The position numbers were made by a program, and so were the translations under genes. Positions 17,378 through 44,240 of a stretch of 49,559 nucleotides of DNA are shown one piece after another (position 1 is the first letter of the stretch; every line of letters begins with the position of its first letter). The notes below the pieces were generated by a model, which saw only the letters and a program-made list of their open reading frames with translations, was not told the origin of the DNA and searched no databases. Source of the stretch: Pseudomonadota bacterium (lineage in GTDB: Bacteria > Pseudomonadota > Gammaproteobacteria > Burkholderiales > Burkholderiaceae_C); NCBI GenBank assembly GCA_041165385.1, contig JBEANP010000001.1, forward strand, positions 1 through 49,559. Direction: 5' to 3'.

Positions 17378-17416
17378 TTTTTGGTATCTCCCTGTGGCTT
17401 ATCCGGCCATTCAAAT

Positions 17417-18648: not shown

Positions 18649-18685
18649 TTTTAGCCTGTCTATTTATTGTTAGCTGGCCAGATAT

Positions 18686-19129
18686 TTAGCGTGGCGCGTG
18701 GCATGACACCAATACGAGAGTGAGTGTCCCATCCGTTTCGATTGAAAACTTCATGTACACCTCAAGTCCTTTGGCGCTTCGGACCTGTCTGATGGAGTCA
18801 TACCGCATTACATAAACATCGCAAGGTACGGTGGCACCGCCATTGACCTTGCACCATTCGGATTTGTCATAGTCGCTTGCCGTCAAGCTGACCAGCATCT
18901 GCACTACGTTTTCGTAAGTCCACTTGTAGTTCTCCAGGTCAATTTCACAACGATCTGTTGCCACCCAAATGGCATCAAGATCGAAATCCGCAGACTTCAA
19001 CACCGACTGAAGCCCTTTGAGGTCGATCAAGGCACCACCGCCAATCCGCCTGCTTTTTGGGGCGGATGGGTTGTAAGCGGGCAGTTTTGACGGGTCTATC
19101 CGCCACAAAGCAGAGTATGAGTTTATCAC
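18686..19129 (-). CDS. mqsR: MqsR-like endoribonuclease toxin
   Basis: LTASDYDKSEWC...CDVY...YMKFSI...LVSCH pattern; directly upstream of the MqsA-like antitoxin. Confidence 0.75.
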   Translation of the reverse strand: MINSYSALWRIDPSKLPAYNPSAPKSRRIGGGALIDLKGLQSVLKSADFDLDAIWVATDRCEIDLENYKWTYENVVQMLVSLTASDYDKSEWCKVNGGATVPCDVYVMRYDSIRQVRSAKGLEVYMKFSIETDGTLTLVLVSCHAPR

Positions 19130-19138
19130 GGTGATAAA
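19122..19138. promoter_or_regulatory. Perfect palindrome, likely antitoxin operator of the TAC module
   Basis: TTTATCAC-G-GTGATAAA overlaps the toxin start codon; a TTGACG -35-like hexamer lies upstream on the minus strand. Confidence 0.6.
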
Positions 19139-19178
19139 TCAAGCGGGAAAAACCCGAGTCCGTCAAAAGGGGATCGAC

Positions 19179-22769: not shown

Positions 22770-22800
22770 TGTGTTTTGTTCCCTGAGATATCTTCAGATG

Positions 22801-22860
22801 TTGCTATTAGTTTGATAGCTGCTTGCGCAATTTCTACGAGGGCTACAGGCCAATTTCATA
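22801..22860. repeat. Comamonadaceae-type short intergenic repeat (REP/MITE-like)
   Basis: TGCTATtagtttgATAGCTGCTTGCGC...GGGCTAcAGGCCAATTT resembles a dispersed repeat I recall from Comamonadaceae genomes; contains a GCTAT/ATAGC inverted repeat; single copy in this window. Confidence 0.5.
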
Positions 22861-22866
22861 TAAAAA

Positions 22867-25800: not shown

Positions 25801-27165
25801 GCCGTCCATGACATCGGACAGGCGCAAACCTTGGCCTTGGCGAAGCTTTACGGTGAGGTCAAGCACAGAGCCGGCCGGTGCTTGACCTGAAAAGATGTGA
25901 TGCGCAATGGCTCCCAGCGAAAACACATCCAAACTGGGGCCGTGGGTGGCATCTGCGCGTGTGGTTTCGGGTGCCAAATAGACCAAACCAGGGTCTTCAA
26001 CATAATCTTCTACATGGCGCGTGCCGGTGGTGCGATGAACCGTATCGGGGTTATCGGCTTCGCGGGCAGCGGTTTGCCAGTTCATGAGCCGGGGTGTCAA
26101 TGCGCCGCTTTCGGTGCCGTAGATCATGATGCTCTGTGGGCCTAAAGCGCGGTGGTACAGGCGCTTGGAATGCGCGTATTTAAGTGTTTCAGCAATGTCG
26201 CGCACCAACTGCAAGCGCTGGTCAACAGTGAGCAGGACACCACGGTCACGAAGTAAATGATCGAGCCGCTGGGCTTTGGGGTCGTGGTCAAACACCAGCG
26301 CCGGACCCATTTCAGTCTCTTTGTAATCGTTGACCTTGAGGATGCCGGGATGGCTGATGCCTTCAAGCACCTCAAACTCGCGCCTAGCCTGGCGAACCCG
26401 AGATCCACGCGCTTCAGGGCTGGATGCATTGGCAACGGTGTAAATACGAACGCGACGCTGGACGCTTTCGATGCTGACGTGCTGGCTTTGCCAGTCTTGG
26501 AAGCCTTCGCCCTCGGCAATCAGCTTGATTAACTTGTAGTCGCCCACCTGGCGGTGTTTATTGGAGGGCCGAATACCGGCTTCATGTAAGCCACGGGCAA
26601 TAGCGCGGGCTTGCTGGCTATCAATGTTGTGCTGTGGGTTGGCATTGATGCCATTGGTAAGCGCGGCAATGATGCCGTCATCACCCTGTGCACCTGGGCG
26701 ACCACGCAGAAAAGTGCCTGTTTTGGCTGTGCCTTGCAGCTTGCTTTTGAGCGTGGTGGACGACAGAAAAATGGCCGGTTCAACAAAGGGCAATCGGATT
26801 TTTGCCTTGGTAATGGCGGACTGGCGACGCAGCAGGCTGGCCAGGCGCTTTGATTTGCGGTTGGCCAGAATGAGTGGGTTGTCATATGTGTACTCGCGGC
26901 CATCGGTGGTCCAGGTGAACGTATGCGTGTCGCCATCAACTGTGCCTGGCCGGCTTTTGATCTCCACCAGGAACAGCCCCATGGGTGACAAAACGAGCGC
27001 ATCTACTTCACTGATCTTGCCTTCGTCATCAATGAATTCAAAATTGGTCCAGACATTCCAAGGGTCACGGTCGGGCAACTGGGCACGTAGCCATTCAAGG
27101 GCCTCGCGCTCCCACGGAAAGTTGGATTCCGCAATGACGTGCCAGCGGTTGTCGGACATGCTCAT
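22867..27165 (-). CDS. pglW: BREX-2 serine/threonine kinase PglW
   Basis: N-terminal NERD (EVDALV...LVEIKS), degenerate kinase (HRALGPQSI), intact kinase (HRDLKPENI, DFS), and RGVGDKIRKEI helical motif. Confidence 0.95.
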   Translation of the reverse strand: MSMSDNRWHVIAESNFPWEREALEWLRAQLPDRDPWNVWTNFEFIDDEGKISEVDALVLSPMGLFLVEIKSRPGTVDGDTHTFTWTTDGREYTYDNPLILANRKSKRLASLLRRQSAITKAKIRLPFVEPAIFLSSTTLKSKLQGTAKTGTFLRGRPGAQGDDGIIAALTNGINANPQHNIDSQQARAIARGLHEAGIRPSNKHRQVGDYKLIKLIAEGEGFQDWQSQHVSIESVQRRVRIYTVANASSPEARGSRVRQARREFEVLEGISHPGILKVNDYKETEMGPALVFDHDPKAQRLDHLLRDRGVLLTVDQRLQLVRDIAETLKYAHSKRLYHRALGPQSIMIYGTESGALTPRLMNWQTAAREADNPDTVHRTTGTRHVEDYVEDPGLVYLAPETTRADATHGPSLDVFSLGAIAHHIFSGQAPAGSVLDLTVKLRQGQGLRLSDVMDGCGMRLQELIQFATSPDVMARYDMVQGFLDDLVKVEDELTAPDPEVTVDPSFANHNDRLDGGFTVVERKGRGSSSVVLLVREDGSQEDLILKVACDVAHNERLVAEGEVLASMRHQNIVEYRRTVEVAGRTALLMRSAGPKTLAKKISEDGRLSLDLLQRFGEELIEVVNFLEDHGVAHRDLKPENIGIAESSSRKLQLVLFDFSLCRTSADNITAGTHPYLDPFLSLRKTPRWDLYAERFALAVTLYEMAVGKVPEWGDGHTSPAMLDVEATIASDVFDPVTREGFTAFFSKALRRDYKERFDNAEDMLRAWRAIFATRQTVHPPQAQGFQATALTATPTTTMAELGYSLEAQDVLERMGVHNARELLAVDRIRFRYLRGVGDKIRKEIRLAAKELARLRPDLTQGRSTLHEFDDDTSSDGAVSVNELAAQLLPRRPAGDDRPEEAALTHYLGLDLGLDDAAKPEDAQKPTSLWPTLGDSALATNVDRSVLTATLIKARERWLKNPAFTEVRLQLEKLVHSQGQVMTANEAALALLALRGCAVQDDVERLQLAAAVLRAALEAESHLDQPRFECFDHGPSPLIATSPAWAEYARQLGNVADTCALVEPLMPPSRVLEALEAVKPADSVVNAAGQGNDANAPLMASTRLLRLATSASRKAALSSRQEIYGRGMPALQALRQSLGALVGAPTLRIRELQDRVRGRYPEATPLPSRPELDRLLEEVNAPLKWSPTANEGTGAYLCDSLGNHPTAGTTTLFSRQSTFLGTSANGSRPNATEGDAAALLAEASAAEERLQRSLKSGGLLVLTIEPRQTRHAEAELMQRFGPGSSTTPALQRISFDTLLLRALKTEATSARVDWTMVLRADAAEPGSRDWANLQRLVQRTLATLKPTLLNSPAPLLVTNVGLLARYNLMPLVTEMEASAGRLGHTPSLWMLLPSHHQGLPLIDGVSVPLVNSSQAFGLPQAWVENKHRARVAA

Positions 27166-27928: not shown

Positions 27929-28717
27929 CTACCGAATTGATCTGAATTCGAAGTAGGCCGGTGTTCCATCCTTCCACTTGAATGCGGCAATTGCCTCAAT
28001 AGTGACGACCTTTGATTCATCCAGTGCGTGTATCAAGGCCAAATTACATTCTTGATTTTGTACCGCACTCGGTCGAAGAACATCAAGGTAAGACCCAAAA
28101 TCAATAGACGCCACTTCTGGCGGCACGCTGTCAACAAATGTGTAATTTTTGAGTCGAACGAAAGCCCTGGGCAGATCATGTACTTGAGCTTCAATATGCA
28201 CCCGCACACCATGCGGGATTATTTGCTGAGGTTTTTGAAATTCCATTCCCACAAGTTCTGGTTGAATCAATGGGTATAAGTTTGACCGCGACCGCATAGA
28301 CTTTCTGATGACACGAATTTTTGAGCCAGCGTCAGTGCTGTCAAGCAGCTCTGCAAGATTTCTATTGGAAGACATGCTCGTCAAGATATGCAATGGCAAT
28401 TGCAACAAGTCAGCGTCTACTCGTGCAAGATCTGATCGAAATCCCTCTTCCATTTCCAAATTTGATTGTCTGGAAGATGTCTGAAATTGCAGCAATTTTT
28501 GTGCGGATTCCCGCAATGAAAAAACCAGATGCAAGCCATCTTCGGTTGAACGATACCTATGAACCAACGTGGTTGAAGACATATGCTTCAGCGAAGGACA
28601 AATATCTAGGAAGTCAGAGAGAAGGGCAGCTGTCTTCCTTTTAAGTTCAGCAGCTTCAACGGACATATTTACCGGTAGCAAAGGAACTGAGCGCAGGTCG
28701 ATTTCACGAAGATTCAT
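27929..28717 (-). CDS. Hypothetical protein, third gene of the recombinase operon
   Basis: 262 aa; starts 4 nt after the stop of the 890 aa recombinase. Confidence 0.75.
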   Translation of the reverse strand: MNLREIDLRSVPLLPVNMSVEAAELKRKTAALLSDFLDICPSLKHMSSTTLVHRYRSTEDGLHLVFSLRESAQKLLQFQTSSRQSNLEMEEGFRSDLARVDADLLQLPLHILTSMSSNRNLAELLDSTDAGSKIRVIRKSMRSRSNLYPLIQPELVGMEFQKPQQIIPHGVRVHIEAQVHDLPRAFVRLKNYTFVDSVPPEVASIDFGSYLDVLRPSAVQNQECNLALIHALDESKVVTIEAIAAFKWKDGTPAYFEFRSIR

Positions 28718-28721
28718 GGCG

Positions 28722-31394
28722 TCACTTCTTCAATATATTTGAATAAACAGCTAATCCAAAAAGTAAGGCGTGGAGCCCAGAAATACCGACTGCTGCGGGA
28801 CCTGTCAGGGCGACTCCTTCCACAACGGATGTCCATAAAAGAGAAACGGATGGCCGGGCGGGATGTGAGAAATCCAAACTTTGCCATTGGGGTTGGCTAT
28901 CAAAAACTGAACTGAAAGAACGAAAGCCAGGGCCTAATAAAAGTGCAATTCGTTCTTGCGTGAGCCCAGCAACCTCGACGCGTAAAAGTAGGTCATTTGG
29001 ACTGACCTCTGCGGCTTTCATGAGGGCTAAGAGCCTGGTTAGCTGCAGTTCATCTGTGGCATCTATGTGTCCATTCTTTGAAAGTGCACACCATGCGTTG
29101 CTCGCCGATGAAGCAATACCGATATCCACTGGCAAACGCATGAAATCCACCAATTTGGAATACTTTGGATTTTCAGCTGCATCAAGGCGAATACCCGCGA
29201 ATTGCAGGGCATCGCTTGTGCTCATGGACTGACGCACAAGTTCGGAAAGTCGGCGCCCTTTTATTGAATGCCCCAAAGCACATGCTGTAGCGATAGAGCG
29301 AATACGAGTGACCGTAGACTCTGTAGTGGAAGTCCTGGCCGCAATCAACTCATCTGAATACTTACCAAATTGAATAAGTTGGAGTGCCTTGATAACTTGA
29401 TACGGCGTAATATGTTGGGCAAAAGTTCGCATGAGCACCGGTACTGATTGATGTTTTGGACCACTTGCGTTGAGCGCGTGGTCTGCAAGACCATGAGTCT
29501 GGATATGCTTGTGCACCACATCAGAAATTGATGATCCGAGTCGAATGGATCGCTGGGTCAAAGTGTTGGACTTGATACCCGTTAGGCAATGCCCTTGGTG
29601 TGCTGAAAGAGCGCATGCCATTTGAAACAGATCAATGCATTGCTTTAAAGCAGCTTCGTAATGGTGCGAATAGAAGCGCAGAGTCATTTGGGTACTTGCG
29701 TGACCCATTGAATACGCCACGTGTGCCAATCGATCAAAGTTTGCTATGGATGAGGAACGAAGTACCCCTTCAACCTCTCTGCTTGCCCAGCTGTGGCGAA
29801 GCGAATAGAGAGTCATGTCAGCATCACGAGTGCATAGCTTCAGCACATTGAGCAGTAGGCGGACACAAGCGCTCTTTCTATAGACTTTGTGCCCATAGTC
29901 TATGTCGCCAAATAGTAAATCCTTTGAACTGGCTCCTTCGTTTGTCCGCAATCCAAGCCATTCGCGTAACTCCTTTGCGGCCCAATATTCCCCAATCAAC
30001 ACACGGCGCGTACTAGATTTTGTTTTCAATTTTCCAAAGCGTTGGGATGAAACTATTTCGACTTCAAAAAATCCTGCTTCACCAAGATGCTGGACGTTCG
30101 CGATCCGAAGTCGAAATAGTTCATCGCGTCGAAATGGCGCAACGTATAGAAGCGCCAATATCAAGCGGCTCATTTTTTGAAGTCGTGTGTCTGCACCTCC
30201 TTGGTCTTGAATCCAAGTTCGTGCCATCTGAATTTCAGAAATTGAAATGAACTGCGCTCGAGGTACAACCTCTGGAATAAATTTGTGAAGTTGGGGTTTT
30301 GTGACAGGCGTATCAAACTCTTCGCTCAAAAAAAACATGAAGGAAGACAGCGCTGCCCCAACTCCCTGCTTGTCACTGATACTTGGATCCGAGATGATCG
30401 AAATACATAAGGTTTCGATTTGATCAGCATCGAGTTCTTCAGGCAGCGTGTCCAGCGCAACTAGTCCACGCAGGAGTGGTTCGGCGGCGACTCGGCAATA
30501 CCGGGTTCGCGTGGAAAAGGCTGCATCGGCTTTCTGAGGTGTTCCACTTTCAAACAAGTCGAACATCCAGCAAATCACAATTCCAAGCCAATAATGCTTG
30601 CCAGAAGCAATCCCTTTTATTTTCAGCAGATCTTTCAGGAAGGTGTCTGAATCTTTGAAAGAGCGTGATTTTTCTCTTGCTCTGAAAATAGCAATAACTT
30701 GATTGAGAAGACCAAAGGCTTCGGAGAGATTTATTGCACTTTCAGTTTTTGGATTTGTAACATCCAGCTCGTCAAGGATGTCAGCCATCACTGATCTGAC
30801 CTCGACACTTTCGGTTGCGTGCTCCAAATGGCCATCAAAGTTATGGTTCCCCAAGTACCTCTCAAAGCTAGCTTGGTTGAGAGAAGCTAACGGTTGAATA
30901 CCGGCTATGTGCGACCAGAGTGGCATCGCTGTATTCCTAGCGCTCCATGCAATGCAATCAAGATCTAGTTCGGCTTGAAGTGAGTTGAGTTTTATGTCGC
31001 TATATGCTTCAGTTTTTTGGAGCCATTTATCGACGACGCCCGAAATTAGCCAAACGCCCTGATGGCTTCGGGAGCGAAGGCGAGTCAAAGTAAAAGTGGA
31101 CAGTAGACGGCGGTGCAATTTTTTGTCCTCGTCAGTCCACTCTGTGCAATGCGAATCTGAGCTGATGCCACTCAAAGCTTGTTGGATGTATTGGAGCGGG
31201 ACTAGCTCAAAGCACAATAGATGGACCGCAGTACCAATGTCGCTTCCATATTCAATTGAAAGCGCTTCTTGCTGCAACTTTCCAAATCGACGAACTCGCG
31301 ATCTATTGCCATCTAAAAAGCGAATATGAAAAAGCCTATCATCTTCGTATAAAGCGATGCCCGCTGCGCTTACTCTTGAAAGTGCGTCGCTCAT
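28722..31394 (-). CDS. Large tyrosine recombinase (890 aa)
   Basis: LLYVAPFRRDELFRL (R), GKLKTKSSTRRV (K), LYSLRHS (HxxR equivalent) and SMGHASTQMTLRFY (H...Y); long N- and C-terminal extensions. Confidence 0.85.
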   Translation of the reverse strand: MSDALSRVSAAGIALYEDDRLFHIRFLDGNRSRVRRFGKLQQEALSIEYGSDIGTAVHLLCFELVPLQYIQQALSGISSDSHCTEWTDEDKKLHRRLLSTFTLTRLRSRSHQGVWLISGVVDKWLQKTEAYSDIKLNSLQAELDLDCIAWSARNTAMPLWSHIAGIQPLASLNQASFERYLGNHNFDGHLEHATESVEVRSVMADILDELDVTNPKTESAINLSEAFGLLNQVIAIFRAREKSRSFKDSDTFLKDLLKIKGIASGKHYWLGIVICWMFDLFESGTPQKADAAFSTRTRYCRVAAEPLLRGLVALDTLPEELDADQIETLCISIISDPSISDKQGVGAALSSFMFFLSEEFDTPVTKPQLHKFIPEVVPRAQFISISEIQMARTWIQDQGGADTRLQKMSRLILALLYVAPFRRDELFRLRIANVQHLGEAGFFEVEIVSSQRFGKLKTKSSTRRVLIGEYWAAKELREWLGLRTNEGASSKDLLFGDIDYGHKVYRKSACVRLLLNVLKLCTRDADMTLYSLRHSWASREVEGVLRSSSIANFDRLAHVAYSMGHASTQMTLRFYSHHYEAALKQCIDLFQMACALSAHQGHCLTGIKSNTLTQRSIRLGSSISDVVHKHIQTHGLADHALNASGPKHQSVPVLMRTFAQHITPYQVIKALQLIQFGKYSDELIAARTSTTESTVTRIRSIATACALGHSIKGRRLSELVRQSMSTSDALQFAGIRLDAAENPKYSKLVDFMRLPVDIGIASSASNAWCALSKNGHIDATDELQLTRLLALMKAAEVSPNDLLLRVEVAGLTQERIALLLGPGFRSFSSVFDSQPQWQSLDFSHPARPSVSLLWTSVVEGVALTGPAAVGISGLHALLFGLAVYSNILKK

Positions 31395-33496
31395 TTGGAA
31401 CTCCTCAAGCCATGAAATGGTCCTGAAAGTACCTGTTCATACAATGCATTGAGCGCCGAACTAATTCGCATGCACCACGCATGCTCTGAGCCTTCACTGA
31501 TAGAGCCAGTGCTCTCTTGCCCTCTAACTTCATGACGCAGAAGTCGGTCAATATCGAGCGAAGAGAATCCGGCGAGGCGTGCTGCATTTTCGGTCCACTT
31601 GCGGCCAAAGTCTGGCGCCAATCGGTCGCTCAACTGCAAGACCCGCAAGACTTCCTTGGAGCCGCAGTTGCTCATACCTCTATCTATTTGGATCGTACGA
31701 ACCAAGGGCACCGACTGATAGTGTGCTACTTGCTGTGACCATTCCTTCAGGCCAGGTATGGCGGACGTTACAGTCGGCAGGCTACCCAATGTTGCGATGT
31801 GCGCGCGATAGTTTTTTAGCTCTAGATGGAAGCCAGCCGTCAAAGGTGCAGCCATCCCACCTTGACGGCCTTGGCTACTTTTTTCATTTAGGTCACTTGT
31901 CCGGTCCCCTGGAAAGATGTCCGCAAAAATTGAGAATTCACTGGTGGAGCGAAGTGAAAGTCTGAGCATCCATCGAAATGCAATTGATGCTGCATAGTAA
32001 TTGTGAAAGTCTACAACCGCAGCAACAGAACGACGCCTTGCTGGACGCAACTCCTTTAGACGTAACACCATGAATTGATCTAAGGATCGTAGCGCCGCAT
32101 CAGCGGGGACTATGCGAGCACCAAAATTCAGTCCTGATTGACGCGGCTGTTCCAGTGTGAACCAGCCCAAGCGCCGGTACAACATAGCTTGGTATCGGTA
32201 CGATTCAGTTGAGGATACGGTCGCATAAAAAAGTTTGCTTTTTGCGCATAAACCAAAATCCCCAAAAGTGGTCGCTGAAAGAAATGCATCATCACCGCTT
32301 TGAATGGCGAGCGCGCCAAGTGTTCTCGCCCACCGTGCCCATGTAGGTTTGATTTCAGTAACACTTGGGTAAACGGAACCTTCGGACTTAATTGACGTTA
32401 ACGCTGGCACTATGTCCCCAAAGGTGTAAACGTTCATTGAACGGCATCGTTCTTCAACAAGCTCGAAAAAAGGCTTCGGCAATAGAGTGCTGTGGATAAA
32501 ACTTGCTTCAATGCTCTCAGCTTTGCTTGGCATTGCCGCGTCCTTCGCTAGCCGTGAATAGTCACGCTTTAAGGACATTGACTCAGCATCAAAAATAATG
32601 CTCCAGTCGTCTTCATTGTTGGTGGCGGTGCTGCCAAATTCAATTGGAATTAGGTGCGCCATTTCCACTGGAGCGCCACTAAAACCAATCAACCAAAGTG
32701 CGAGGTGATACTCGACTTGATTAGAAAATACACCCGCACCATCGTGACTCAGGGCGATCGTCACCTGTTGTTTACTAAAGCAGGTTGAATCCAAAATTGC
32801 CGTGCGCCGCCGATCACTTGGAAATGCCGCCCGCCCAATCCAACTGCTGAGTGAAGCTTGATGGATATTGAGTGGCGGTTCTGGCTCCGTTGGAGTTTCA
32901 GAAAACTGAATCTGAAACTCAATCCAAAATTTGTAAAACAGGGAATGCCAACCGCAGATTGGGTCTCCCGCAGGTCGGTGAATCAGTTGGTTGATATCTG
33001 CATCACCATTTGATAGGTCGCGACGTAAGTTACGGCAGTAGGCGGCAGCCATTGTCTTTTTTTGCATTAAGGCCAACCCAAGGTTTAGACCGAGGCCCAC
33101 TACTGCCGCGGTTGGAAGCGCATCGGAAGTTCCGAAGCCAACCTCTGCCAGAGTTTTCCAGCCCTGAAAATCAGCCAGTCGGCGATGCAGCGTTGATTTC
33201 AAATCGTGCATCTCCAAATCTTGGTACTGATCAATTAGAGTGGAATTCAAGACCTGAAGCTGACCCCGAATTTCGCGCGCAACACTATTTGGTACTTTGA
33301 TTAGGGAGAGTGCTGAATCAAATGAAATCAGCGCGCCTTTGGCCACAGCAAGAAGCGCTGGCACATCTACTGGATGGGCAATTGAATTCAATAACTTGGC
33401 GAGTGCGGCAATTGCGATTTCGTTTTTTCCGTTTAGAACTCGCTGGACGAATCCACAATCAAAGAATGCTGGGTTGTTGGGTTCAAGCGGGTGCAT
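31391..33496 (-). CDS. Large protein with a degenerate tyrosine-recombinase-like C-terminal domain (701 aa)
   Basis: Spaced motifs LSLRS (R), LNEKS (K), PDFGRK and IDRLLRHEVRG; no obvious nucleophile Tyr; RBS GAGGAG; ATGA overlap with the next gene. Confidence 0.65.
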   Translation of the reverse strand: MHPLEPNNPAFFDCGFVQRVLNGKNEIAIAALAKLLNSIAHPVDVPALLAVAKGALISFDSALSLIKVPNSVAREIRGQLQVLNSTLIDQYQDLEMHDLKSTLHRRLADFQGWKTLAEVGFGTSDALPTAAVVGLGLNLGLALMQKKTMAAAYCRNLRRDLSNGDADINQLIHRPAGDPICGWHSLFYKFWIEFQIQFSETPTEPEPPLNIHQASLSSWIGRAAFPSDRRRTAILDSTCFSKQQVTIALSHDGAGVFSNQVEYHLALWLIGFSGAPVEMAHLIPIEFGSTATNNEDDWSIIFDAESMSLKRDYSRLAKDAAMPSKAESIEASFIHSTLLPKPFFELVEERCRSMNVYTFGDIVPALTSIKSEGSVYPSVTEIKPTWARWARTLGALAIQSGDDAFLSATTFGDFGLCAKSKLFYATVSSTESYRYQAMLYRRLGWFTLEQPRQSGLNFGARIVPADAALRSLDQFMVLRLKELRPARRRSVAAVVDFHNYYAASIAFRWMLRLSLRSTSEFSIFADIFPGDRTSDLNEKSSQGRQGGMAAPLTAGFHLELKNYRAHIATLGSLPTVTSAIPGLKEWSQQVAHYQSVPLVRTIQIDRGMSNCGSKEVLRVLQLSDRLAPDFGRKWTENAARLAGFSSLDIDRLLRHEVRGQESTGSISEGSEHAWCMRISSALNALYEQVLSGPFHGLRSSK

Positions 33497-34495: not shown

Positions 34496-35707
34496 ATGAT
34501 CACTCTACCCCGTCAGTCAACATTCGCCAGCTTGGAGCAATTCTTGCGCGATGTTCGACAGTCGCCGGGACAAGACCTTCGGTTGCCTGCTCAGATTAGC
34601 TATGGAGGAGCGTTTAGTTTCTCCGCTGTCGCGGTTCAGTGCATTGCAACTTGGGCTAGGCTGCACGAAGGCAAGCGCCGCATCCGGCTGTCACCGAATT
34701 TCGCGGACGACGAGAAAACGCGAGCACGTATCGCTGGGACATTGTTTTCAATGTGTGGGTTGTACTTCGCCCATGAGATATCTGCCGGAGACCAGATCGT
34801 TACCAGATCTGAAGCATTGCAGGCCGTTGCACCGCGGGTGTTCGCAATGCAGGACTATCAATACCGAGACACACTGCGCGGACCGAGCACCGCGCTATGC
34901 TGTTTCGAGGGTGCAAAACTTGAGTTTCTTCAATCCCTCTACGCTAGTCCGCGACGTGGAACCTCTGAAAGTACGACGATAAGGTCAGCTTCCGAATTTG
35001 CATCAATACTACCGAGATTGATAGATGCCTGTTCGGCGCATTCGTCTTCAGCGCTAACAGAATCACAGACGCTAGCTTTAGCACAGCTCGTTCATCAGCT
35101 TTTCAAGAATGCTGATGTGCACACCACATCTGATGCGCAAGGTCGGCTGTACGACACGGGCATCCGCGGAATTCAGGTTCGAGAAGTTCGGATTGGCGAC
35201 GATGACACATACGCTGCATTCGTTTCCGACGATCGTGGATTGCGTGAGTACTTGACAAAAATTGTCCGTCGCAGCGTAACTAGGAGGCTTGATGAGCAAG
35301 GCGGCAAGGTGGCCCAACTCGATGCTTGGCCGTCTTCGTCTTTTATTGAGATCACAGTATTTGATACCGGACCAGGACTCGCATTACGTTGGCTTGCGCG
35401 TCATAAAGGCATCGCACGCTACGATGAAGTTGATCGCGGAGAAGAACTAGAGGCAGTCAAAGCCTGCTTCCAACTCCATGCGACAACCCATTCTGTTGGA
35501 ATGAAAGGAGACGGGCTACCGATTGCAGTAGGGGCGATGAGAGAGCTACAGGCTTTTATGTTTCTTCGAACTGGGCGTCTGGCACTTGTTCAAGATTTCA
35601 GCTCCGGCAGCCAGACAGGGTTTGCTCCACGTCATCGTTACGGTCCGCGCCATCTTGCTGAGGTTGTTGGTGCGACCTATTCGATCTGTTTCCCTATCCC
35701 AAGATAA
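34496..35707 (+). CDS. GHKL / histidine-kinase-like ATPase domain protein
   Basis: N-box LVHQLFKNADVH, G1 ITVFDTGPGL, G2 GDGL, and terminal GATYSICFP strand; no TM segment or HisKA dimerisation motif seen. Confidence 0.8.
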   Translation: MITLPRQSTFASLEQFLRDVRQSPGQDLRLPAQISYGGAFSFSAVAVQCIATWARLHEGKRRIRLSPNFADDEKTRARIAGTLFSMCGLYFAHEISAGDQIVTRSEALQAVAPRVFAMQDYQYRDTLRGPSTALCCFEGAKLEFLQSLYASPRRGTSESTTIRSASEFASILPRLIDACSAHSSSALTESQTLALAQLVHQLFKNADVHTTSDAQGRLYDTGIRGIQVREVRIGDDDTYAAFVSDDRGLREYLTKIVRRSVTRRLDEQGGKVAQLDAWPSSSFIEITVFDTGPGLALRWLARHKGIARYDEVDRGEELEAVKACFQLHATTHSVGMKGDGLPIAVGAMRELQAFMFLRTGRLALVQDFSSGSQTGFAPRHRYGPRHLAEVVGATYSICFPIPR

Positions 35708-37905
35708 TGTCGCTACCCGGTTTTTTCTTGTTCAGATGGCAAACAGAGCAGCCCGCGGCGGGGGCAGAAGACATCGCTGTCGTCTTTAAAGTCCCTGGAG
35801 CGGTGGATCTGAGCGTTCTGCCGGACTTGATCGAATCTGTATGCGCTGGGCCTATCGTTCCATCGGTAATTGTGATGCTTCAGCTGGGAGAGGACGGCCT
35901 AATCGAAGCCCTCAAAGCCGAACCCGTAAAGAATGCGCTGGCACGATTTACTGGACGGATGCCGTTGCTTGTTTTTGCGATCACCCCCGCCCCCTATTCT
36001 TTGACTCTCATTATGGAGCTGGGAGCCTCCGTGACACTGCAGCGTGAGCTGACTAAGATCTTCATGAAACCATCAGATTGGGTTCGCGCAGGTCTTGCGA
36101 CAGTATTTGACCCAAAGGTTGTTGTTGTCACCGCTCCGTCTGGGTACGCATTCTTGAAACCGTCGAATGAGCGTTCGACTTATTTCATCCGCGCAGAGCT
36201 GGCTCTATCGAAGTCGACCGCAGTCACCTTCGTAGCTTTCGCTATCTTTCAGCGGTTGGTGAGAGACTACGGCAAGGTTCCGCAGGAGCTGCGCCTATTG
36301 CTCGTGGATACGATGAACGTCGCCGCGATAGCGTTTGCTTTGCGCGAGATGCTTCTATTGGCGGGTGTCAAACTTGCACCGCAAGTTGAGAGCTTCCATT
36401 CGTATGGAGGTATGGACCAAGTGGCAAGTCCACTACCAGACACTTCGTTGTGCATTGTCTCCGCCTCATCATCGATGAACTTGCATCGCAAATGGACTCG
36501 CGAGAAGGCGCTTTCGGCTCGGGACATCGTTACGTTGGTCACCTTCGAGGACGCCGAAGGTGCGCAGCACGCACTTTACGGCCTCCCAACAGAGACTAGG
36601 CCAGCGCCATCGTCAACATCATCAACTTACGACATTCGCATAACAGGGGAATATTTTTTCCCTGCTATGGAGCAGCCTCGCAAAGTATTGCTGACCACCA
36701 CTCATCATGGCTGCCCAATCCATACTAATGATTTTTATAGGCTGCGCGATCGCCAACTGTTTGGCGCGTTCCGCTCTGCGGGAGCATCAGAGACGCGGCG
36801 AGGTCTCTTCATCGATGCGGACGCCCTGCTTAACGTAGATGAGTTTCAAGATTGGATCAATACTAAGGTACCGCAGCTGCTGAGAGCCGGCACAAAGAAA
36901 GTAATTTTTCAAAACGACGCCGCTTCGGCTAAATTGGCTCAACATGTTGCTCATATCGCAATAGCGATGGGATGCACTGAGGTGCAGGTATGCAATGCCA
37001 TCGGCCTGGATGAGGCGACTATTGATCCAACAGCTCCCCTCGTGTGCGTAGCGGCCGTGGTGGGACGGGGGAATGCGCTGCTCTCGTTAAGCAGGGATCT
37101 TCGGAACTGCCACTTTGGAGCACGTCTTTTTCTGATTGGGATGCAGGTTACTGAGAGTCTCGTGAAACTTGATGCCTTTGACCGAAACCTCAAACACTCA
37201 TCACATAAGTCGCCAATTGAGGTGCAGCGGAAAAATGCTTTCCTTACTTCTGATGCAGTAACAGAGAGTTTCCAGCAGGAGCTGACGCTCTACAAGGGCA
37301 AGGAAACGCTATCCGAGCGCAAGGAGAACCTGCAAAGTGGGCTTGAGGCGACGCAGGTTTTTCTCCCGTCTGGACCAAACTTGGACACGGCGCTGGTTTT
37401 GAATGTGGACTTTGCGTTCTGGGATGGGAAATATGAACCGTCCGCTTATCAAGCACAGGTTCTCGCCACAATCTCAAATATTCTCCAGAACGCGCGAACT
37501 AGCAAGCTACGGTTCTCAGAACAACAACTACGTAGCCCCATGCTGATGCATGTAGCTCTGGACCCGGAAAATTTTGCTCGTTTCAACGAAGGGATCATTC
37601 AAGCCGCGCTACTGCGTTCGGCGTTGCCTTCTGAGCTTGACTACCGAGGTGATGTTCAGGCAAGCGCATATATGGTGACGCTGCTGAAACGTATTGCCTC
37701 CAAATTCGATCACCGTCAGATGGCCACGTTGGAATTTCTTTCTGCGATTGCTACTAGGCGATTGCTTCTGAACCCGGATGACACCATGATGGTCAAGGAT
37801 GCGTTTCGCTCGGCTTTAGGACAAAATTCAAATCCGATGGTCGCGGCTGTTCTGATGTTTCTTGACGCTTTTCCATTGCCCAGTGCTGTTAGGGAGGCCT
37901 TCTAG
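35707..37905 (+). CDS. Protein with two degenerate phosphoribosyltransferase-like domains (732 aa)
   Basis: FLKPSNERSTYFIRAE resembles the type I PRTase hood; degenerate PRPP loops CIVSASSSMN and VCVAAVVGRGNALLSLSRDL; TAATG overlap with the upstream ATPase gene. Confidence 0.65.
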   Translation: MSLPGFFLFRWQTEQPAAGAEDIAVVFKVPGAVDLSVLPDLIESVCAGPIVPSVIVMLQLGEDGLIEALKAEPVKNALARFTGRMPLLVFAITPAPYSLTLIMELGASVTLQRELTKIFMKPSDWVRAGLATVFDPKVVVVTAPSGYAFLKPSNERSTYFIRAELALSKSTAVTFVAFAIFQRLVRDYGKVPQELRLLLVDTMNVAAIAFALREMLLLAGVKLAPQVESFHSYGGMDQVASPLPDTSLCIVSASSSMNLHRKWTREKALSARDIVTLVTFEDAEGAQHALYGLPTETRPAPSSTSSTYDIRITGEYFFPAMEQPRKVLLTTTHHGCPIHTNDFYRLRDRQLFGAFRSAGASETRRGLFIDADALLNVDEFQDWINTKVPQLLRAGTKKVIFQNDAASAKLAQHVAHIAIAMGCTEVQVCNAIGLDEATIDPTAPLVCVAAVVGRGNALLSLSRDLRNCHFGARLFLIGMQVTESLVKLDAFDRNLKHSSHKSPIEVQRKNAFLTSDAVTESFQQELTLYKGKETLSERKENLQSGLEATQVFLPSGPNLDTALVLNVDFAFWDGKYEPSAYQAQVLATISNILQNARTSKLRFSEQQLRSPMLMHVALDPENFARFNEGIIQAALLRSALPSELDYRGDVQASAYMVTLLKRIASKFDHRQMATLEFLSAIATRRLLLNPDDTMMVKDAFRSALGQNSNPMVAAVLMFLDAFPLPSAVREAF

Positions 37906-39617: not shown

Positions 39618-40319
39618 TCATAGCCATTGTCCCGAGCTAGGGCAAACCACAGCCTTAGCGCCCCCGTACCAGAGCTGAGCTTCTAGAAGCGTTGAAGCAG
39701 CAGAAGTATTGGCGTCAAAAGTGATGTTCAGTGCGCTGCAAACTTGTGCGTTGTCAACTGGCAGTTCCCAGGTCAGAAAAACTTGGGAGCAGTCGTGGAA
39801 TGTTGAAAAGTTGCTTGCTTCAAATCGACTGCTATTGCGGTCAATCACACCATGCGGCTGACATGTGTCAAAAATTATGACAGTCCCGCGTTGGAGTGGG
39901 ACGCGATGCCCAGTCGCCGCAAAGTGTACGTCAAGGCCTTTGTCTTCGCTCAAGAAGAGGTTGCAAAAGACTTTGTCGCCATATTGATCGCCGTCGTGGT
40001 GGTAACTAGCGCCACGACACGCCATCAGGGAAAGGTTGCTACTCGCGAATGCTTGCTCAAACCCAATTTTGCGTGCCCAGTGCGCAACGATCTCGAGGCA
40101 GTTTTTGTAGCCAGGCCAGCGCATGCGTGTGCGCGCTAACGGCAATGACTCTACATCGCCAGCTTCCAGTGCCAAGAGCTGGGAAATGTCGCGGTCCCAG
40201 TCTGCAACCAGCTTGGTTGGTGGCGCCTCAATGCTCAGAGTGTCCGAAAGTACGACACTGCCCACGATACGACTGCTCAGAGAGTCGCCTTGCCAAAAGA
40301 ATGACGTGGACTTAAGCAC
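39618..40319 (-). CDS. Putative 2OG-Fe(II) oxygenase / cupin-fold protein
   Basis: HxD motif YHHDG, strand FCNLFLS, distal His in IFDTCQPHGV; GTG start with AAGGA RBS, 15 nt after the zorG stop. Confidence 0.65.
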   Translation of the reverse strand: MLKSTSFFWQGDSLSSRIVGSVVLSDTLSIEAPPTKLVADWDRDISQLLALEAGDVESLPLARTRMRWPGYKNCLEIVAHWARKIGFEQAFASSNLSLMACRGASYHHDGDQYGDKVFCNLFLSEDKGLDVHFAATGHRVPLQRGTVIIFDTCQPHGVIDRNSSRFEASNFSTFHDCSQVFLTWELPVDNAQVCSALNITFDANTSAASTLLEAQLWYGGAKAVVCPSSGQWL

Positions 40320-40334: not shown

Positions 40335-40943
40335 CTAGCGAGAGTTGGTGCGCGGGTGCTTCGACTCTTTACCGGCGAGGTCAAGAAGCATCAGCGTGTC
40401 GATGTGCGTCATAAACCGGTTCAGGTAGTCAGGCGAAATGTCACGCATCAATTCCAAAGAGCGTAGGGCCACCGCATGTGAGTTGATGGGGCCAGCGTTT
40501 TGCGGTGCATTGTCTAAGGCGGCTTTGATACGTTGGTTGACACTCAGTTTGGACCAGGTGTTTCTAAAATATGCAACAGCTTTAAGCTCAGTCGGCGCGC
40601 TAGGGCCCACTCCCCCGATGGTCTGCAATCGATCAGGCTCATCGTTGTGTGAAAGGTGGTGTACGAGATCCTTCAGTGTCTCATTCGGTACGGGCTTGAC
40701 CTTGTCGACCGCTACACCAGTCCCTGGCGGTCGTGTATGAGCTGCGCGTGCCGCAAACGCGTGCGCTAACTGCAAAATTTTAGTATCCAAAATTCGACGA
40801 ACACTGCCTTCATAGGCGCTCGCCCGGCGATACAAAGCCTCTAGGTTGTGAAAACTCACGGGGTCCAAAAGATGCGCATCACTCTGCCGCAGTGCTTGAA
40901 TAGCTTGTGTGACTTTGTCGCCATCTGGATTCTGCTCACTCAT
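40335..40943 (-). CDS. zorG: DUF2894 family protein, Zorya type III ZorG
   Basis: FRNTWSKLS...PQNAGPINSH...LELMRDISPDYLNRFMTHIDTL; position after the MotB-like gene. Confidence 0.8.
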   Translation of the reverse strand: MSEQNPDGDKVTQAIQALRQSDAHLLDPVSFHNLEALYRRASAYEGSVRRILDTKILQLAHAFAARAAHTRPPGTGVAVDKVKPVPNETLKDLVHHLSHNDEPDRLQTIGGVGPSAPTELKAVAYFRNTWSKLSVNQRIKAALDNAPQNAGPINSHAVALRSLELMRDISPDYLNRFMTHIDTLMLLDLAGKESKHPRTNSR

Positions 40944-41583
40944 GAGTTACTGGCTTAGAGTGCGTAGTTCTAGGTACCGGAGACATTTCCACGCGTCGAT
41001 TGAGCGTGCGCCCCTTTTCGTCTGCATTCGGAGCAATGGGTTGCTCTGAACCAAAGGCTGCTGCAAACACCAAGCGTGAAGGCATCCCCGCGTCAATCAG
41101 CGCGCGCGTAACCGTCAGTGCCCGCTGCGCAGACAGTTCCCAGTTATCAGTAAATTGATTATTGCCGTCGCGGATGGAGCGATCATCTGTGAAGCCGCTG
41201 ATCATCAATATCTCGCCTCTCGATGTAAGAAATGTCTGCAGTGGCTTGATCAAGCTTTCCAATAGCCTCTTGCCTTCGGGCTGCAACTGGTCAGAGTTCA
41301 CCGTAAAGAGGAACCGCCCGCTAATGCCGATACGGCCGTTGTCCAGTGTGATGCGCCCAGAGGCCAGAGGAATAGCCAAAGCCTTTTCGAGCGTGAGTCG
41401 GCGTTGCTCTTCTTGCTGGCGCAGCTTGACTTCCGCTTCTAGATGCGTCGCCACTTCCAGGTGAATCACAAGCACGCCAACCAGGAGCAACACGAACGCG
41501 CCGAGCAAGCCCGACATCAGGTCGCCAAAAACTGCCCACACAGGGGCGGCGTCTTCTATTGATGCTTCATCACCCTGCATCAT
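40936..41583 (-). CDS. zorB: MotB/OmpA-like protein, Zorya ZorB
   Basis: TM segment with conserved Asp (WAVFGDLMSGLL); OmpA domain SGFTDD, NWELSAQRA, NRRVE. Confidence 0.88.
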   Translation of the reverse strand: MMQGDEASIEDAAPVWAVFGDLMSGLLGAFVLLLVGVLVIHLEVATHLEAEVKLRQQEEQRRLTLEKALAIPLASGRITLDNGRIGISGRFLFTVNSDQLQPEGKRLLESLIKPLQTFLTSRGEILMISGFTDDRSIRDGNNQFTDNWELSAQRALTVTRALIDAGMPSRLVFAAAFGSEQPIAPNADEKGRTLNRRVEMSPVPRTTHSKPVTHE

Positions 41584-43502
41584 CCTGCAACTTCTTCACG
41601 CAAGGTGGTTTGATGGGTAGAGATGCTGCGTAACTCTTGCACAATTTCTTTCTGCGACATGACGCTGAGGTCAATAATTTCACGCGCCTGTGCAACGTAA
41701 TATGCAAGCTGATCATCGCTTCTTGCCGTCGATTTATCCATGGCAGTCTCAATACGCTGAAGGTTGGCAATCAGTTTGTCATTTGCTTCACTGAAGGTGC
41801 GTACCGCAAAGCCCAGCGTGTCGCCCAGGCTGGACACTTCCACCGCACTGCTGGTGACGTTGTCAGCAATACCTGCGAGTTTGCTCGCCTCCATGCCCAT
41901 GTTGGAAGCAAATTGTTGCCCCGCATGGTTCAGCGTTTCGCCTGCGGTCTTCACCAGCGTGTCGATTACGGCACGTTGCTCGGTCGATGCTTGGTAAATC
42001 GAATTGAGCAGTGTATTCAGTGTGCTCAAAATTCGGCTGCGTTCTTCAAGTAAGTCGTTGTCCCGAGCAATGCTGTTAGACACTTCTTGGCGTAAGGTGC
42101 CAATCACCTCGGCAGCGGCACGTGGGGCCTCTGATGCAACCTGAATTAACCGCATGATCGGATCTTCGAGCGCAGCGCCTAGTGTCGATAAGTGGCTGGC
42201 AAGTGCGCTTTGCAAGTCACCAAGCCTCTCTACCGCGGCCTGGCCACGCACGTCTTCTGCTGCGCGCAGCGCACCCAGTTCCGTCTGCAATACGCTGGCC
42301 AGTTGGGTCATGCGCTCACCATGCTGCAGTACCCACGTGGCTTCTGAATCCATGCGTGATCGAGCCAACTCTTGCGAGCTGGCCACCATGCGGTCAATGG
42401 CCCCCAGCGTTTTGCCTGCACTGCTTTGCGTGTGCTCCGTAATGGCTTGGGCAGTGTGTTTAAGTGTGTTGCAGATAGCTTGTTGTTGGGCCAAAGCTTG
42501 CTGGCCTGTGGCTTGCCACTGCTGGTGCAGTGAGTCAACCAACTTCTCTAGCTGACTCTGCGTTGTTTGCACCATGCGTTCATGTAATTCGCGTGCCTCT
42601 TTGGATATGCTTGCCATAGCGCTTTCAACCACTGGGCGGATACTATCCCCAGCTGCATGGGCACTTTGCAACAGGCTGCTGCGCAATGACTGGTCTATGG
42701 AGTTGGCCAAACCGGTGTAGACCAATTTGACATCACCGTGAAAGCATTCTTGGTTGTGCAGCAAGCGCCCGTTGAGTTGCAAGGACATACTTTCTATCCT
42801 GACCATCATGGCCTGCAACTGGTCCACCACCGCAGGCAAGGCCTGCGATTGAAGCTGCAATGCCTTGAACGTCTCCCGGCGTTGAAAAGTGTGTGAATAG
42901 CTGCGCAATACCGTTGCAATTTTGATGTCCAGGGTTTGGGCTGCCACCATTCTTTCGCGTCTGCTGATGGCTGACATAAGACCCAATATGGCAGACGAAG
43001 CTACGCCAGCCACTGATGTGCCAAATGACAAGCCCAAGCCTTTGATGGGTGCTGCAAATGCCGAGCGAATCGCTTGCAAGTCGGTAGTGCCCTCCAGCGC
43101 GAACACCGCACCGTTGAGCGTAACCACCATCCCCAAAAATGTACCTAACATGCCCAACATCACGAGCAACCCCACCAAATAGGGTGTGAATGCAGGGCCT
43201 GGCAGTCCACTGCGTTCACCCTCAATGCGCACGCGCACGGGGTTTTGAAGTATGGGGTGAATGGTTGATATCCATGCTTCAAGGTTAGGCAATGGGTCCG
43301 GCAGTTCAGACAGCGCCCGGGACAGGGTGAGCGTGACTGCACGGAAGCGTTGCAACTCGAGTGCGCCGTATCCATAAACGATGCCAATTAGCACTGTCAT
43401 CATTAGCGCAACCAGATGCAGCGACATTAAAAATCCGCTGGCAATCCAAAGCACGGCAAATGCGCCCAGGCCAAACATAAGCGCAAAAAAAAGTCGATTC
43501 AT
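41580..43502 (-). CDS. zorA: MotA-like membrane protein with long helical tail (DUF802-type), Zorya ZorA
   Basis: LVMLGMLGTFLGMV and GLGLSFGTSVAGV TM motifs followed by about 450 aa of Q/A/L-rich helical tail. Confidence 0.85.
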   Translation of the reverse strand: MNRLFFALMFGLGAFAVLWIASGFLMSLHLVALMMTVLIGIVYGYGALELQRFRAVTLTLSRALSELPDPLPNLEAWISTIHPILQNPVRVRIEGERSGLPGPAFTPYLVGLLVMLGMLGTFLGMVVTLNGAVFALEGTTDLQAIRSAFAAPIKGLGLSFGTSVAGVASSAILGLMSAISRRERMVAAQTLDIKIATVLRSYSHTFQRRETFKALQLQSQALPAVVDQLQAMMVRIESMSLQLNGRLLHNQECFHGDVKLVYTGLANSIDQSLRSSLLQSAHAAGDSIRPVVESAMASISKEARELHERMVQTTQSQLEKLVDSLHQQWQATGQQALAQQQAICNTLKHTAQAITEHTQSSAGKTLGAIDRMVASSQELARSRMDSEATWVLQHGERMTQLASVLQTELGALRAAEDVRGQAAVERLGDLQSALASHLSTLGAALEDPIMRLIQVASEAPRAAAEVIGTLRQEVSNSIARDNDLLEERSRILSTLNTLLNSIYQASTEQRAVIDTLVKTAGETLNHAGQQFASNMGMEASKLAGIADNVTSSAVEVSSLGDTLGFAVRTFSEANDKLIANLQRIETAMDKSTARSDDQLAYYVAQAREIIDLSVMSQKEIVQELRSISTHQTTLREEVAG

Positions 43503-43508
43503 AAGTGG

Positions 43509-44240
43509 CTAATTCGTATCTGTAGTGAGTGCTTCCAGCAGGCCGACGGTTGGCTGCAGACGAAGGTCAAGCTCCGCCAACAGCACGACATGCAGGTCAC
43601 TAAAAAATTGGTTGAGCCAAGCGCCAGGCTTGGTCCAAAGGTCGGGGCTGTCGTGCCCGTGGGTTTTGCGCAATTGATGAAAACGCCGCTCGAACATGGT
43701 GGGCAAGCAAGCAAGCAAGCTGGCTTCGCGCTCTTGCAGTATGTTTTCATAGGTTGAGTCAAGCATCGCCAGTTGCCGCAAGCGAGGCGATACATTCGCA
43801 ATTCCATTGCGCACCTTGCTTCGCATGGAACGCGCACTTTGCTCTAAGTGCCGTTGATAATTTTGGTGATAGCGGCGGTAAGGCGTGTAGGTGCTTGCCT
43901 CTTCCATCGTCACACCCGCTTGGTGTGTCGGCAGCACCAAGCGCAACTTGCTATCGCTGGCTGTGGCGTAACGCGCAATAGACTGCTCCAGTGCGTGTCG
44001 GGCAAGAGAAAACTCTTTGGCTACAGCAAAGTCACCTGTTGCATGCAGGGCTGATGTGATTTGTGCAGCGCTATCCTTTTGCACACCAGACAGCTTGATG
44101 GCATCTGTAAAGCTAATCCAGGTACTTAGCTTTTCAGGCAAATCAGGGGCTGGTGTGGCAGGTTCCAGAACGGCCAAATCCACAAGCGTTCGAATTAACA
44201 ATGAACTGTGGAAATGGGTGCGCCTAGAGGCTCGCTTCAT
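43509..44240 (-). CDS. zorF: DUF3348 family protein, Zorya type III ZorF
   Basis: EKLSTWISFTDAIKL, PYRRYH, LRQLAMLD and LLAELDLRLQPTVGLLEAL; first gene of the cluster. Confidence 0.8.
   Translation of the reverse strand: MKRASRRTHFHSSLLIRTLVDLAVLEPATPAPDLPEKLSTWISFTDAIKLSGVQKDSAAQITSALHATGDFAVAKEFSLARHALEQSIARYATASDSKLRLVLPTHQAGVTMEEASTYTPYRRYHQNYQRHLEQSARSMRSKVRNGIANVSPRLRQLAMLDSTYENILQEREASLLACLPTMFERRFHQLRKTHGHDSPDLWTKPGAWLNQFFSDLHVVLLAELDLRLQPTVGLLEALTTDTN

What the first reader, a model, noticed from the sequence alone, without database searches (positions are those of the whole stretch)
34496..37905. Uncharacterised two-gene module: orphan GHKL ATPase plus tandem degenerate PRTase protein, a candidate anti-phage system
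Seen: two translationally coupled genes (TAATG overlap) standing as their own unit. Gene 1 has GHKL N/G1/G2 boxes, with Gln where GHKL ATPases have the catalytic Glu, and no TM, HisKA motif or partner response regulator. Gene 2 has two PRTase-like folds whose PRPP loops lack the acidic DD pair (SASSS and AAVVGRG), plus a C-terminal block LDPENFARFNEGIIQAALLRSA. Context: it lies among BREX-2, two TA modules and Zorya III. Inference: a nucleotide-sensing or kinase-switched defence or abortive-infection system in which the dead PRTase folds bind ligand. I cannot match it to a named validated system, although PRTase-containing conflict modules have been predicted computationally.
Basis: partly seen in the sequence, partly recalled or inferred. 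Interest (0 to 1): 0.85.

Follow-up and report, generated by a model that had tools for sequence, protein, structure and literature searches.

The report
Kinase-like switch plus pseudo-PRTase defence candidate
This is a real, tightly linked two-gene cassette already catalogued as an untested phage-defence candidate (PADLOC PDC-M65); its first protein likely works as an ATP-dependent kinase switch that would unleash the second, a protein built on two degenerate nucleotide-salvage enzyme folds.

Summary
In detail: two overlapping genes (403 and 732 aa), a soluble GHKL protein (A) and a protein with two PRTase folds lacking the acidic pair (B). It is not unnamed. Both hit PADLOC's untested candidate PDC-M65A/B, as do 64 of 64 aligned B relatives. 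This scan also met the family on other DNA (e1-5038073). A lies upstream of B in 134 of 135 loci with room. Known defence genes flank 15 of 32 loci scanned, against 1 of 19 control blocks. One correction: the 'Gln for Glu' is clade-specific, as 103 of 123 relatives keep Glu. Two points are added here. A is closest to SpoIIAB by fold and to STAS-GHKL kinases of CapK/VapK-type architecture by profile. A sister clade keeps an intact DD loop in B's second PRTase. Best model, inferred and untested: A is a stress-activated kinase switch that releases B, a nucleotide-targeting effector. Verdict: new member of a catalogued, uncharacterised candidate family; interest 0.5.

The parts
34496..35707 (+). 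Gene A, 403 aa: N-terminal alpha/beta domain plus anti-sigma-kinase-like GHKL domain; PDC-M65A family
   Evidence: (E 8.6e-16, residues 2-367)
34496..34870 (+). A residues 1-125, possibly STAS-like; Gln48 (122 of 123) and Trp53 (113 of 123) conserved; candidate sensor surface (inferred)
   Evidence: (profile E 0.005-0.015, probability 3-7%: inconclusive)
34877..35704 (+). A residues 128-403, GHKL fold; Asn205, Asp290, Gly292, Gly294, Gly338, Gly340 invariant in 123 of 123; residue 201 Gln here, Glu in 103 of 123
   Evidence: (HATPase_c in 16 of 70 members)
35707..37905 (+). Gene B, 732 aa, four domains; PDC-M65B family; starts in A's stop codon (TAATG)
   Evidence: (E 9.8e-60)
35707..36072 (+). 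B residues 1-122, fast-evolving alpha/beta domain, unassigned
36073..36606 (+). B residues 123-300, OPRTase-like domain 1: hood PS....F, invariant Asp201, Ser232, Ser252; PRPP loop reads SASSS instead of DD..TG
36724..37251 (+). B residues 340-515, type I PRTase domain 2: loop AAVVGRG without DD; Gly455, Ser462, Arg463, Arg466 conserved; the sister clade has DD at this loop
37264..37866 (+). B residues 520-720, mostly helical C-terminal domain with a strongly conserved block (Arg625, Asn627, Gln632, Ser653 invariant); fold unassigned

Best explanation
The pair is a conserved two-gene cassette of the PDC-M65 family that likely defends against phage, with protein A predicted to act as an ATP-dependent, anti-sigma-type kinase switch that would activate protein B, a likely nucleotide-targeting effector built on two degenerate PRTase folds. 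Shown: obligate pairing and overlap, folds, intact ATP-binding boxes, defence-island enrichment. Inferred, with my odds: defence role (about 0.75); A acts on B as kinase or partner switch and B is the toxic output (about 0.45); the trigger is single-stranded DNA or DNA damage read by A's N-terminal domain, as for CapK and VapK (about 0.25); B acts by binding or consuming PRPP or nucleotides through its Ser/Gly/Arg-rich pockets and stalls the infected cell (about 0.35). A candidate phospho-acceptor would be one of B's invariant serines (232, 252, 653).
For: Pairing: A upstream of B in 134 of 135 loci with at least 400 nt of room, 138 of 160 overall. The first start codon of B, taken at or after 20 nt before A's stop, lies at -19 to +10 nt in 135 of 137 pairs scored. 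Defence context: 15 of 32 loci versus 1 of 19 control blocks, Fisher p 0.002. The pair is embedded between hsdS and hsdM in L063, likewise L120 by cluster label, and sits next to QatABCD on a plasmid. Patchy: 4 of 150 relatives, 2 of 90 in the genus, one of them the sister clade and one partial. A: SpoIIAB tops both fold lists, though tied within 1 Z of histidine-kinase domains. Its profile matches 11 GHKL proteins of STAS-GHKL type, 9 of them followed by a small STAS-like gene (probability 96%, E 1.4e-9, 202 columns, score 75 against 42-51 for three other GHKL sets). That architecture is CapK/VapK, where the kinase phosphorylates a partner to release a toxin and needs a conserved aromatic residue (PMC13373217); A has a conserved Trp53. 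B: PRTase folds; a PRTase toxin precedent exists in ShosT (PMC11961720).
Against: No phenotype or biochemistry exists in what I could search. A's N-terminal half alone does not align to the STAS-GHKL set (probability under 1%) and only weakly to STAS (E 0.005-0.015), so equivalence of Trp53 to CapK Trp68 is not shown. B has no recognisable STAS acceptor domain. This copy has Gln where SpoIIAB-type kinases use a catalytic Glu (role recalled), which may weaken kinase activity in this clade. Both PRPP loops of B lack DD, so its chemistry is unknown. 13 of 32 scanned loci showed no credible PADLOC neighbour, and six loci (five named Rhizobiales, one metagenomic) sit directly behind thyX. Loci are not independent and the control comes from one genome.
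Confidence: 0.4

Rival explanations
1. Toxin-antitoxin-like pair without phosphorylation: A binds B in a nucleotide-dependent way, as SpoIIAB holds sigma-F, and releases it when ATP/ADP balance or a phage protein changes.
For: SpoIIAB-like fold including its N-terminal strand and helix (model 128-403); Gln201 in 20 of 123 members with all ATP-binding residues intact; translational coupling fits fixed stoichiometry.
Against: Glu kept in 103 of 123; the closest profile set has the architecture of true kinases.
Confidence: 0.22
2. One reading: B's dead PRTase pockets sense a nucleotide change during infection (as PyrR and PurR bind PRPP or nucleotides, recalled) and switch on A, which is the toxic kinase or ATPase.
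For: Both loops lack DD yet keep invariant Ser/Gly/Arg phosphate-binding-type residues; PurR and PyrR are among the fold matches.
Against: In the characterised STAS-GHKL systems the kinase is the sensor, not the effector; the sister clade keeps a catalytic-looking DD in B.
Confidence: 0.2
3. A regulatory accessory of neighbouring defence systems (for example type I restriction-modification), like CapKS, rather than a stand-alone defence.
For: Directly adjacent and co-oriented with hsd genes in 13 of 160 loci, some near-duplicates; capKS lies downstream of R-M systems in 88 of 443 cases.
Against: No third gene travels with the pair (largest neighbour cluster 13 loci); no DNA-binding domain recognised; neighbours are many unrelated systems.
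Confidence: 0.1
4. A non-defence mobile module, such as a nucleotide-metabolism or stress regulator carried on islands.
For: thyX directly upstream in 6 loci; some copies sit among metabolic genes.
Against: Defence enrichment, embedding in type I R-M and patchy presence.
Confidence: 0.08

Closest known systems
PDC-M65 (PADLOC-DB 2.0 phage defence candidate; Payne et al. 2024, 10.1101/2024.01.29.577857)
   Same: Both genes hit the two models, in A-then-B order; 64 of 64 B relatives hit PDC-M65B; relatives are embedded in type I R-M, the criterion by which PDCs were found.
   Different: This copy is a divergent member (A E 8.6e-16; B best stretch 367-702) and is not embedded here. PDC-M65 is untested and is not mentioned in the paper's main text; its supplementary tables, which may annotate it, were closed.
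CapK-CapS and VapKSC (Chambers et al. 2026, PMC13373217)
   Same: Soluble anti-sigma-type GHKL protein with an N-terminal alpha/beta domain, directly followed by its partner, near immune loci and R-M systems; A's closest profile set has this architecture.
   Different: The partner is a 732-aa tandem PRTase protein, not a small STAS-wHTH repressor or STAS antitoxin plus PIN nuclease; STAS in A is unproven; I compared with architecture-defined look-alikes, not with the published CapK/VapK sequences.
SpoIIAB / RsbW anti-sigma kinases
   Same: Top fold match for A residues 128-403 (Z 7.0-7.1); ExxxN box in most relatives.
   Different: A is three times longer, with insertions and a fused N-terminal domain; no sigma factor or separate STAS gene travels with it.
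PRTase-containing defence toxins: ShosT, retron type III PRTase-CE
   Same: Type I PRTase fold in a two-gene defence-type module.
   Different: No sequence match: 0 of 64 B members hit PRTase-CE or Pribosyltran at E 0.1, and none hits ShosT at E 0.01; only faint hits in the sister clade (PRTase-CE 3 of 27, E 0.02). ShosT has one PRPP-binding PRTase fused to a pyrophosphatase and a DprA-like antitoxin.
OPRTase / APRTase / PRPP synthetase / PurR / PyrR
   Same: Fold of B domain 2 (Z 11-13.5); OPRTase hood motif in domain 1.
   Different: Both PRPP loops lack the acidic pair; extra N- and C-terminal domains; not a housekeeping distribution.

Membership tests
PADLOC PDC-M65 | Protein matching PDC-M65A | tested here: met
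   E 8.6e-16, residues 2-367 on profile 4-346 of 398, the only PADLOC hit
PADLOC PDC-M65 | Adjacent protein matching PDC-M65B | tested here: met
   E 9.8e-60, only hit; 64 of 64 aligned relatives hit it, best E 0
PADLOC PDC-M65 | PADLOC's own per-model score and coverage cut-offs and system rule | not testable with these tools
   The scan gives E-values only; the system rules are not provided
PADLOC PDC-M65 | Family found embedded in BREX, DISARM or type I R-M | tested here: met
   L063 hsdR..hsdS-A-B-hsdM; not embedded in this window
CapK/VapK STAS-GHKL kinases | Anti-sigma-type GHKL kinase domain with catalytic Asn | tested here: met
   Asn205 in 123 of 123
CapK/VapK STAS-GHKL kinases | N-terminal STAS domain with ssDNA-stacking aromatic residue | tested here: inconclusive
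   STAS profile E 0.005-0.015, probability 3-7%; no alignment of the N-half to the STAS-GHKL set; Trp53 in 113 of 123
CapK/VapK STAS-GHKL kinases | Followed by a small STAS substrate gene (CapS or VapS, with VapC) | tested here: not met
   The next gene is the 732-aa B in 134 of 135 loci; no recurrent third gene; B's N-domain gave no STAS profile match
CapK/VapK STAS-GHKL kinases | ssDNA-stimulated Ser phosphorylation of the partner | not testable with these tools
   needs biochemistry
Two-component histidine kinase | HisKA dimerisation domain with phospho-His, sensor or TM region, cognate receiver | tested here: not met
   No HisKA hit in 70 members, no TM-strength segment, B does not match a receiver profile
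Catalytic type I PRTase | PRTase fold | tested here: met
   Domain 2 Z 12-13.5; domain 1 by profile only
Catalytic type I PRTase | PRPP loop with acidic pair (DD/ED..TG.T; motif recalled, seen in controls) | tested here: not met
   Loop 1 SAS(T/S)S, loop 2 (A/G)(A/S)(V/C)(I/V)GxG across 134 members; met only in the sister clade, DD in 27 of 27
ShosTA / PRTase-CE (retron type III) | Match to ShosT or PRTase-CE profile and the cognate partner (DprA-like or RT/wHTH) | tested here: not met

The most novel reading that the evidence does not exclude
A widespread, mechanistically new immune system in which a CapK-like kinase senses phage-generated single-stranded DNA and directly phosphorylates a tandem pseudo-PRTase protein, switching on an effector whose conserved C-terminal domain carries an undescribed activity; the sister clade with an intact DD loop would be the catalytic ancestor, letting one watch an enzyme become a sensor or switch within one defence lineage.
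Probability: 0.2. Interest if true: 0.8.

Novelty: new member of a known kind. Interest (0 to 1): 0.5.

Why it matters
The family is large (1,028 protein clusters at 50% identity with E under 1e-30), spans Pseudomonadota, Bacteroidota and other phyla, and is catalogued only as a number. The link to CapK/VapK-type kinase switches and the DD-intact sister clade turn it into a directly testable mechanism: it would be a case of a phosphorylation switch wired straight to a nucleotide-metabolism-fold effector, extending the modular use of GHKL kinases in bacterial immunity. The locus itself is not a first sighting.

Tried and rejected
Pfam and NCBIfam: no hit for either protein. PDB sequence searches with four family profiles gave nothing at E under 0.19. 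ESM Atlas: only unnamed clusters for B, HATPase_c at 10-14% of members in lower rows for A. ATP-cone idea for B's C-terminal block: prompted by a weak NrdR hit (E 0.54), not supported by profile comparison (probability about 1%, E 0.04-0.08). STAS or receiver identity for B's N-domain: no support. Viral fold library: only generic PRTase and helicase rows. Phage genomes: no B homologue by tblastn. Promoter and terminator scans: at chance level. Sequencing runs: no RNA holder listed. Complex prediction of A with B: never run, the queue was full, so no verdict. Literature: 'PDC-M65' found in 0 main texts and not in the ten DefensePredictor supplements held, one of them cut; searches found no paper describing a GHKL plus tandem-PRTase system. 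Two papers I recall on predicted conflict systems (Burroughs and Aravind 2020; Nicastro et al. 2023) are not held and may describe this architecture. PADLOC hits I dropped as partial or generic before counting: mad3, DrmD on an IstB-sized protein, PD-Lambda-2_B, MkoC, PycC; a lone methyltransferase (L032) and three PDC-only loci were not counted among the 15.
Full report
1. Observation. The two ORFs, their TAATG overlap and all quoted motifs are present. About 1 kb of low-GC spacer (45%) without an ORF of 80 aa lies upstream, and MqsR-MqsA genes follow. The window is contig C1 of a 75%-complete genome with one copy of the pair. It carries an integrase at 920-2455, BREX-2 at 7565-27165 and Zorya III at 40335-44240.

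2. It has a name. Neither protein hits Pfam or NCBIfam. In PADLOC-DB each has exactly one hit: PDC-M65A (E 8.6e-16) and PDC-M65B (E 9.8e-60). All 64 members of a diverse B alignment hit PDC-M65B and nothing else. PDCs are 145 untested candidates found as genes embedded in BREX, DISARM or type I R-M (Payne et al. 2024; I read part 1 of 5 and keyword passages; M65 is not in the main text and the preprint's supplements were closed).

3. Conservation as a unit. I kept the tools' best 80 of 270 confirmed genome loci and best 80 of 234 metagenome loci. A was found upstream of B in 138 of 160. Among the 135 with at least 400 nt upstream, 134 have A; the miss has a partial B. The genes nearly always touch, most often with a 4-nt overlap (66 of 137). 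No third gene recurs in more than 13 loci. The family is wide (Beta-, Alpha- and Gammaproteobacteria, Bacteroidota and others; 1,028 clusters at E under 1e-30) but patchy (4 of 150 relatives). It occurs on 11-12 plasmids and was not found in 50,697 phage records.

4. Defence context. I scanned four ORFs on each side for 32 of 59 loci with long flanks. Fifteen had a near-full-length hit to a known system: type I, II, IIG and IV restriction, Thoeris, Dsr1, Lamassu, Hachiman, IetAS, Gabija, Azaca, Olokun. One had a lone methyltransferase, three only other PDCs, and 13 nothing credible. Among 19 control blocks of 7-8 ORFs from the own genome, one had defence genes; Fisher p 0.002, overstated because loci are related and the control is one genome. 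The pair abuts type I R-M genes in 13 of 160 loci and sits between hsdS and hsdM in L063. It precedes QatABCD on a Pseudomonas plasmid. Against a purely defensive reading, it follows thyX in six loci, five of them named Rhizobiales and lies among metabolic genes on a Pantoea plasmid.

5. Protein A. The model is confident (pLDDT 91, pTM 0.91). Residues 128-403 are a GHKL fold; SpoIIAB ranks first (Z 7.0-7.1) but within 1 Z of histidine-kinase domains. The ATP-binding Asn, Asp and glycines are invariant in 123 sequences. Position 201 is Glu in 103 and Gln in 20, the latter a betaproteobacterial subclade that includes this copy, so the family is not a dead ATPase. Against four GHKL sets built from tool-fetched loci, A's profile scored best with 11 proteins of STAS-GHKL type, 9 of which precede a small STAS-like gene (96%, E 1.4e-9, 202 columns; score 75 versus 49, 43 and 51; the canonical histidine-kinase control held only 3 sequences). 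This is the architecture of CapK and VapK, which bind ssDNA between STAS and GHKL through a conserved aromatic residue, phosphorylate a STAS partner, and in VapKSC release a toxin that gives about 2-log phage protection (PMC13373217; parts 1-2 of 12, passages and part of Dataset EV3 read). A's N-terminal domain has conserved Gln48 and Trp53 and aligns to STAS profiles over about 80 columns, but weakly (E 0.005-0.015, probability 3-7%), and does not align alone to the STAS-GHKL set. So it may work like CapK, but it is not shown to be one, and it fails the family's partner test.

6. Protein B. The model (pLDDT 88, pTM 0.61) has four domains. Domain 2 of the PRTase pair matches APRT, OPRT, PRPP synthetase, PurR and PyrR at Z 11-13.5. 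Domain 1 aligns end to end with an OPRTase profile, hood motif in register (E 0.001, 21%). Both PRPP loops lack the acidic pair throughout 134 members but keep invariant Ser, Gly and Arg residues. A CxxC motif follows domain 1 in 62 of 134 members and is absent here. A search of relatives turned up a sister pair, L225, with the same gene order beside an OLD/GajA-like ATPase fragment. Its B is homologous over 625 columns (99.9%) and its A matches too (98.7%). In 27 aligned sequences of 38 found, the second PRTase keeps an invariant DD and matches OPRTase at 93%. This secures PRTase ancestry and shows that the architecture exists in an active-looking form. The N- and C-terminal domains stay unassigned.

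7. Mechanism. I favour A as sensor and switch and B as output, by analogy to VapKSC and to the PRTase toxin ShosT (PMC11961720; passages read). Odds: defence 0.75, A-switches-B 0.45, ssDNA trigger 0.25, whole statement 0.4. The main gaps are the missing STAS acceptor in B, the unknown chemistry of DD-less pockets and the Gln in this clade. Rivals are a non-phosphorylating partner switch (0.22), B as sensor with A as toxin (0.2), an accessory regulator (0.1) and a non-defence role (0.08). Binding of A to B was not modelled.

8. Novelty. No paper characterising it was found in searches; two recalled computational papers and the PDC supplements could not be read and may already describe the domain architecture. 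The domain anatomy, the CapK-like lead and the DD-intact sister clade make an untested family testable. Interest 0.5; the boldest reading has probability 0.2 and interest 0.8.

Noticed in passing
window 17417-19129 (-): Three genes embedded in BREX-2 between pglX and pglY: weakly MqsR-like (E 0.2), MqsA antitoxin (E 9e-18) and weakly SecB-like (E 0.2); looks like a toxin-antitoxin-chaperone module.
   Followed up: no
window 27929-33496 (-): Three-gene unit of 701, 890 and 262 aa at 45-49% GC; the 890-aa protein carries a tyrosine-recombinase domain at 406-580. Possibly the mobility module that brought in the neighbouring cargo.
   Followed up: no
L225 (G054:C20:27852-32240) and proteins P0349-P0386: Sister two-gene system with an intact DD loop in the second PRTase and CxxC motifs after both PRTases; only weak PDC-M65B hits (best E 2e-11), so probably missed by PADLOC; relatives on Ralstonia and Cupriavidus replicons.
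   Followed up: partly
L047, L069, L075, L078, L117, L126, L048: In these mostly Rhizobiales loci the pair lies directly behind (6 loci) or before (1) a co-oriented thyX gene; insertion site or functional link to thymidylate supply is undecided.
   Followed up: partly
L386, L395, L398, L400-L405: STAS-GHKL plus small STAS gene pairs with no evident PIN or wHTH partner in the short flanks read; possible further CapKS-like modules.
   Followed up: partly
L370-L393 (20 loci): A common 345-aa fusion that reads as helix-turn-helix, GHKL and C-terminal DUF4325 STAS, i.e. kinase and STAS target in one chain.
   Followed up: no
L236 (G000:C10:5000-15000): A second defence island in the same genome: HmaA with embedded Septu and an AbiL-like ATPase.
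   Followed up: no
window 39618-40319 (-): 233-aa gene directly downstream of Zorya III zorF, co-oriented, with a weak 2OG-oxygenase-like hit (E 0.0016).
   Followed up: no
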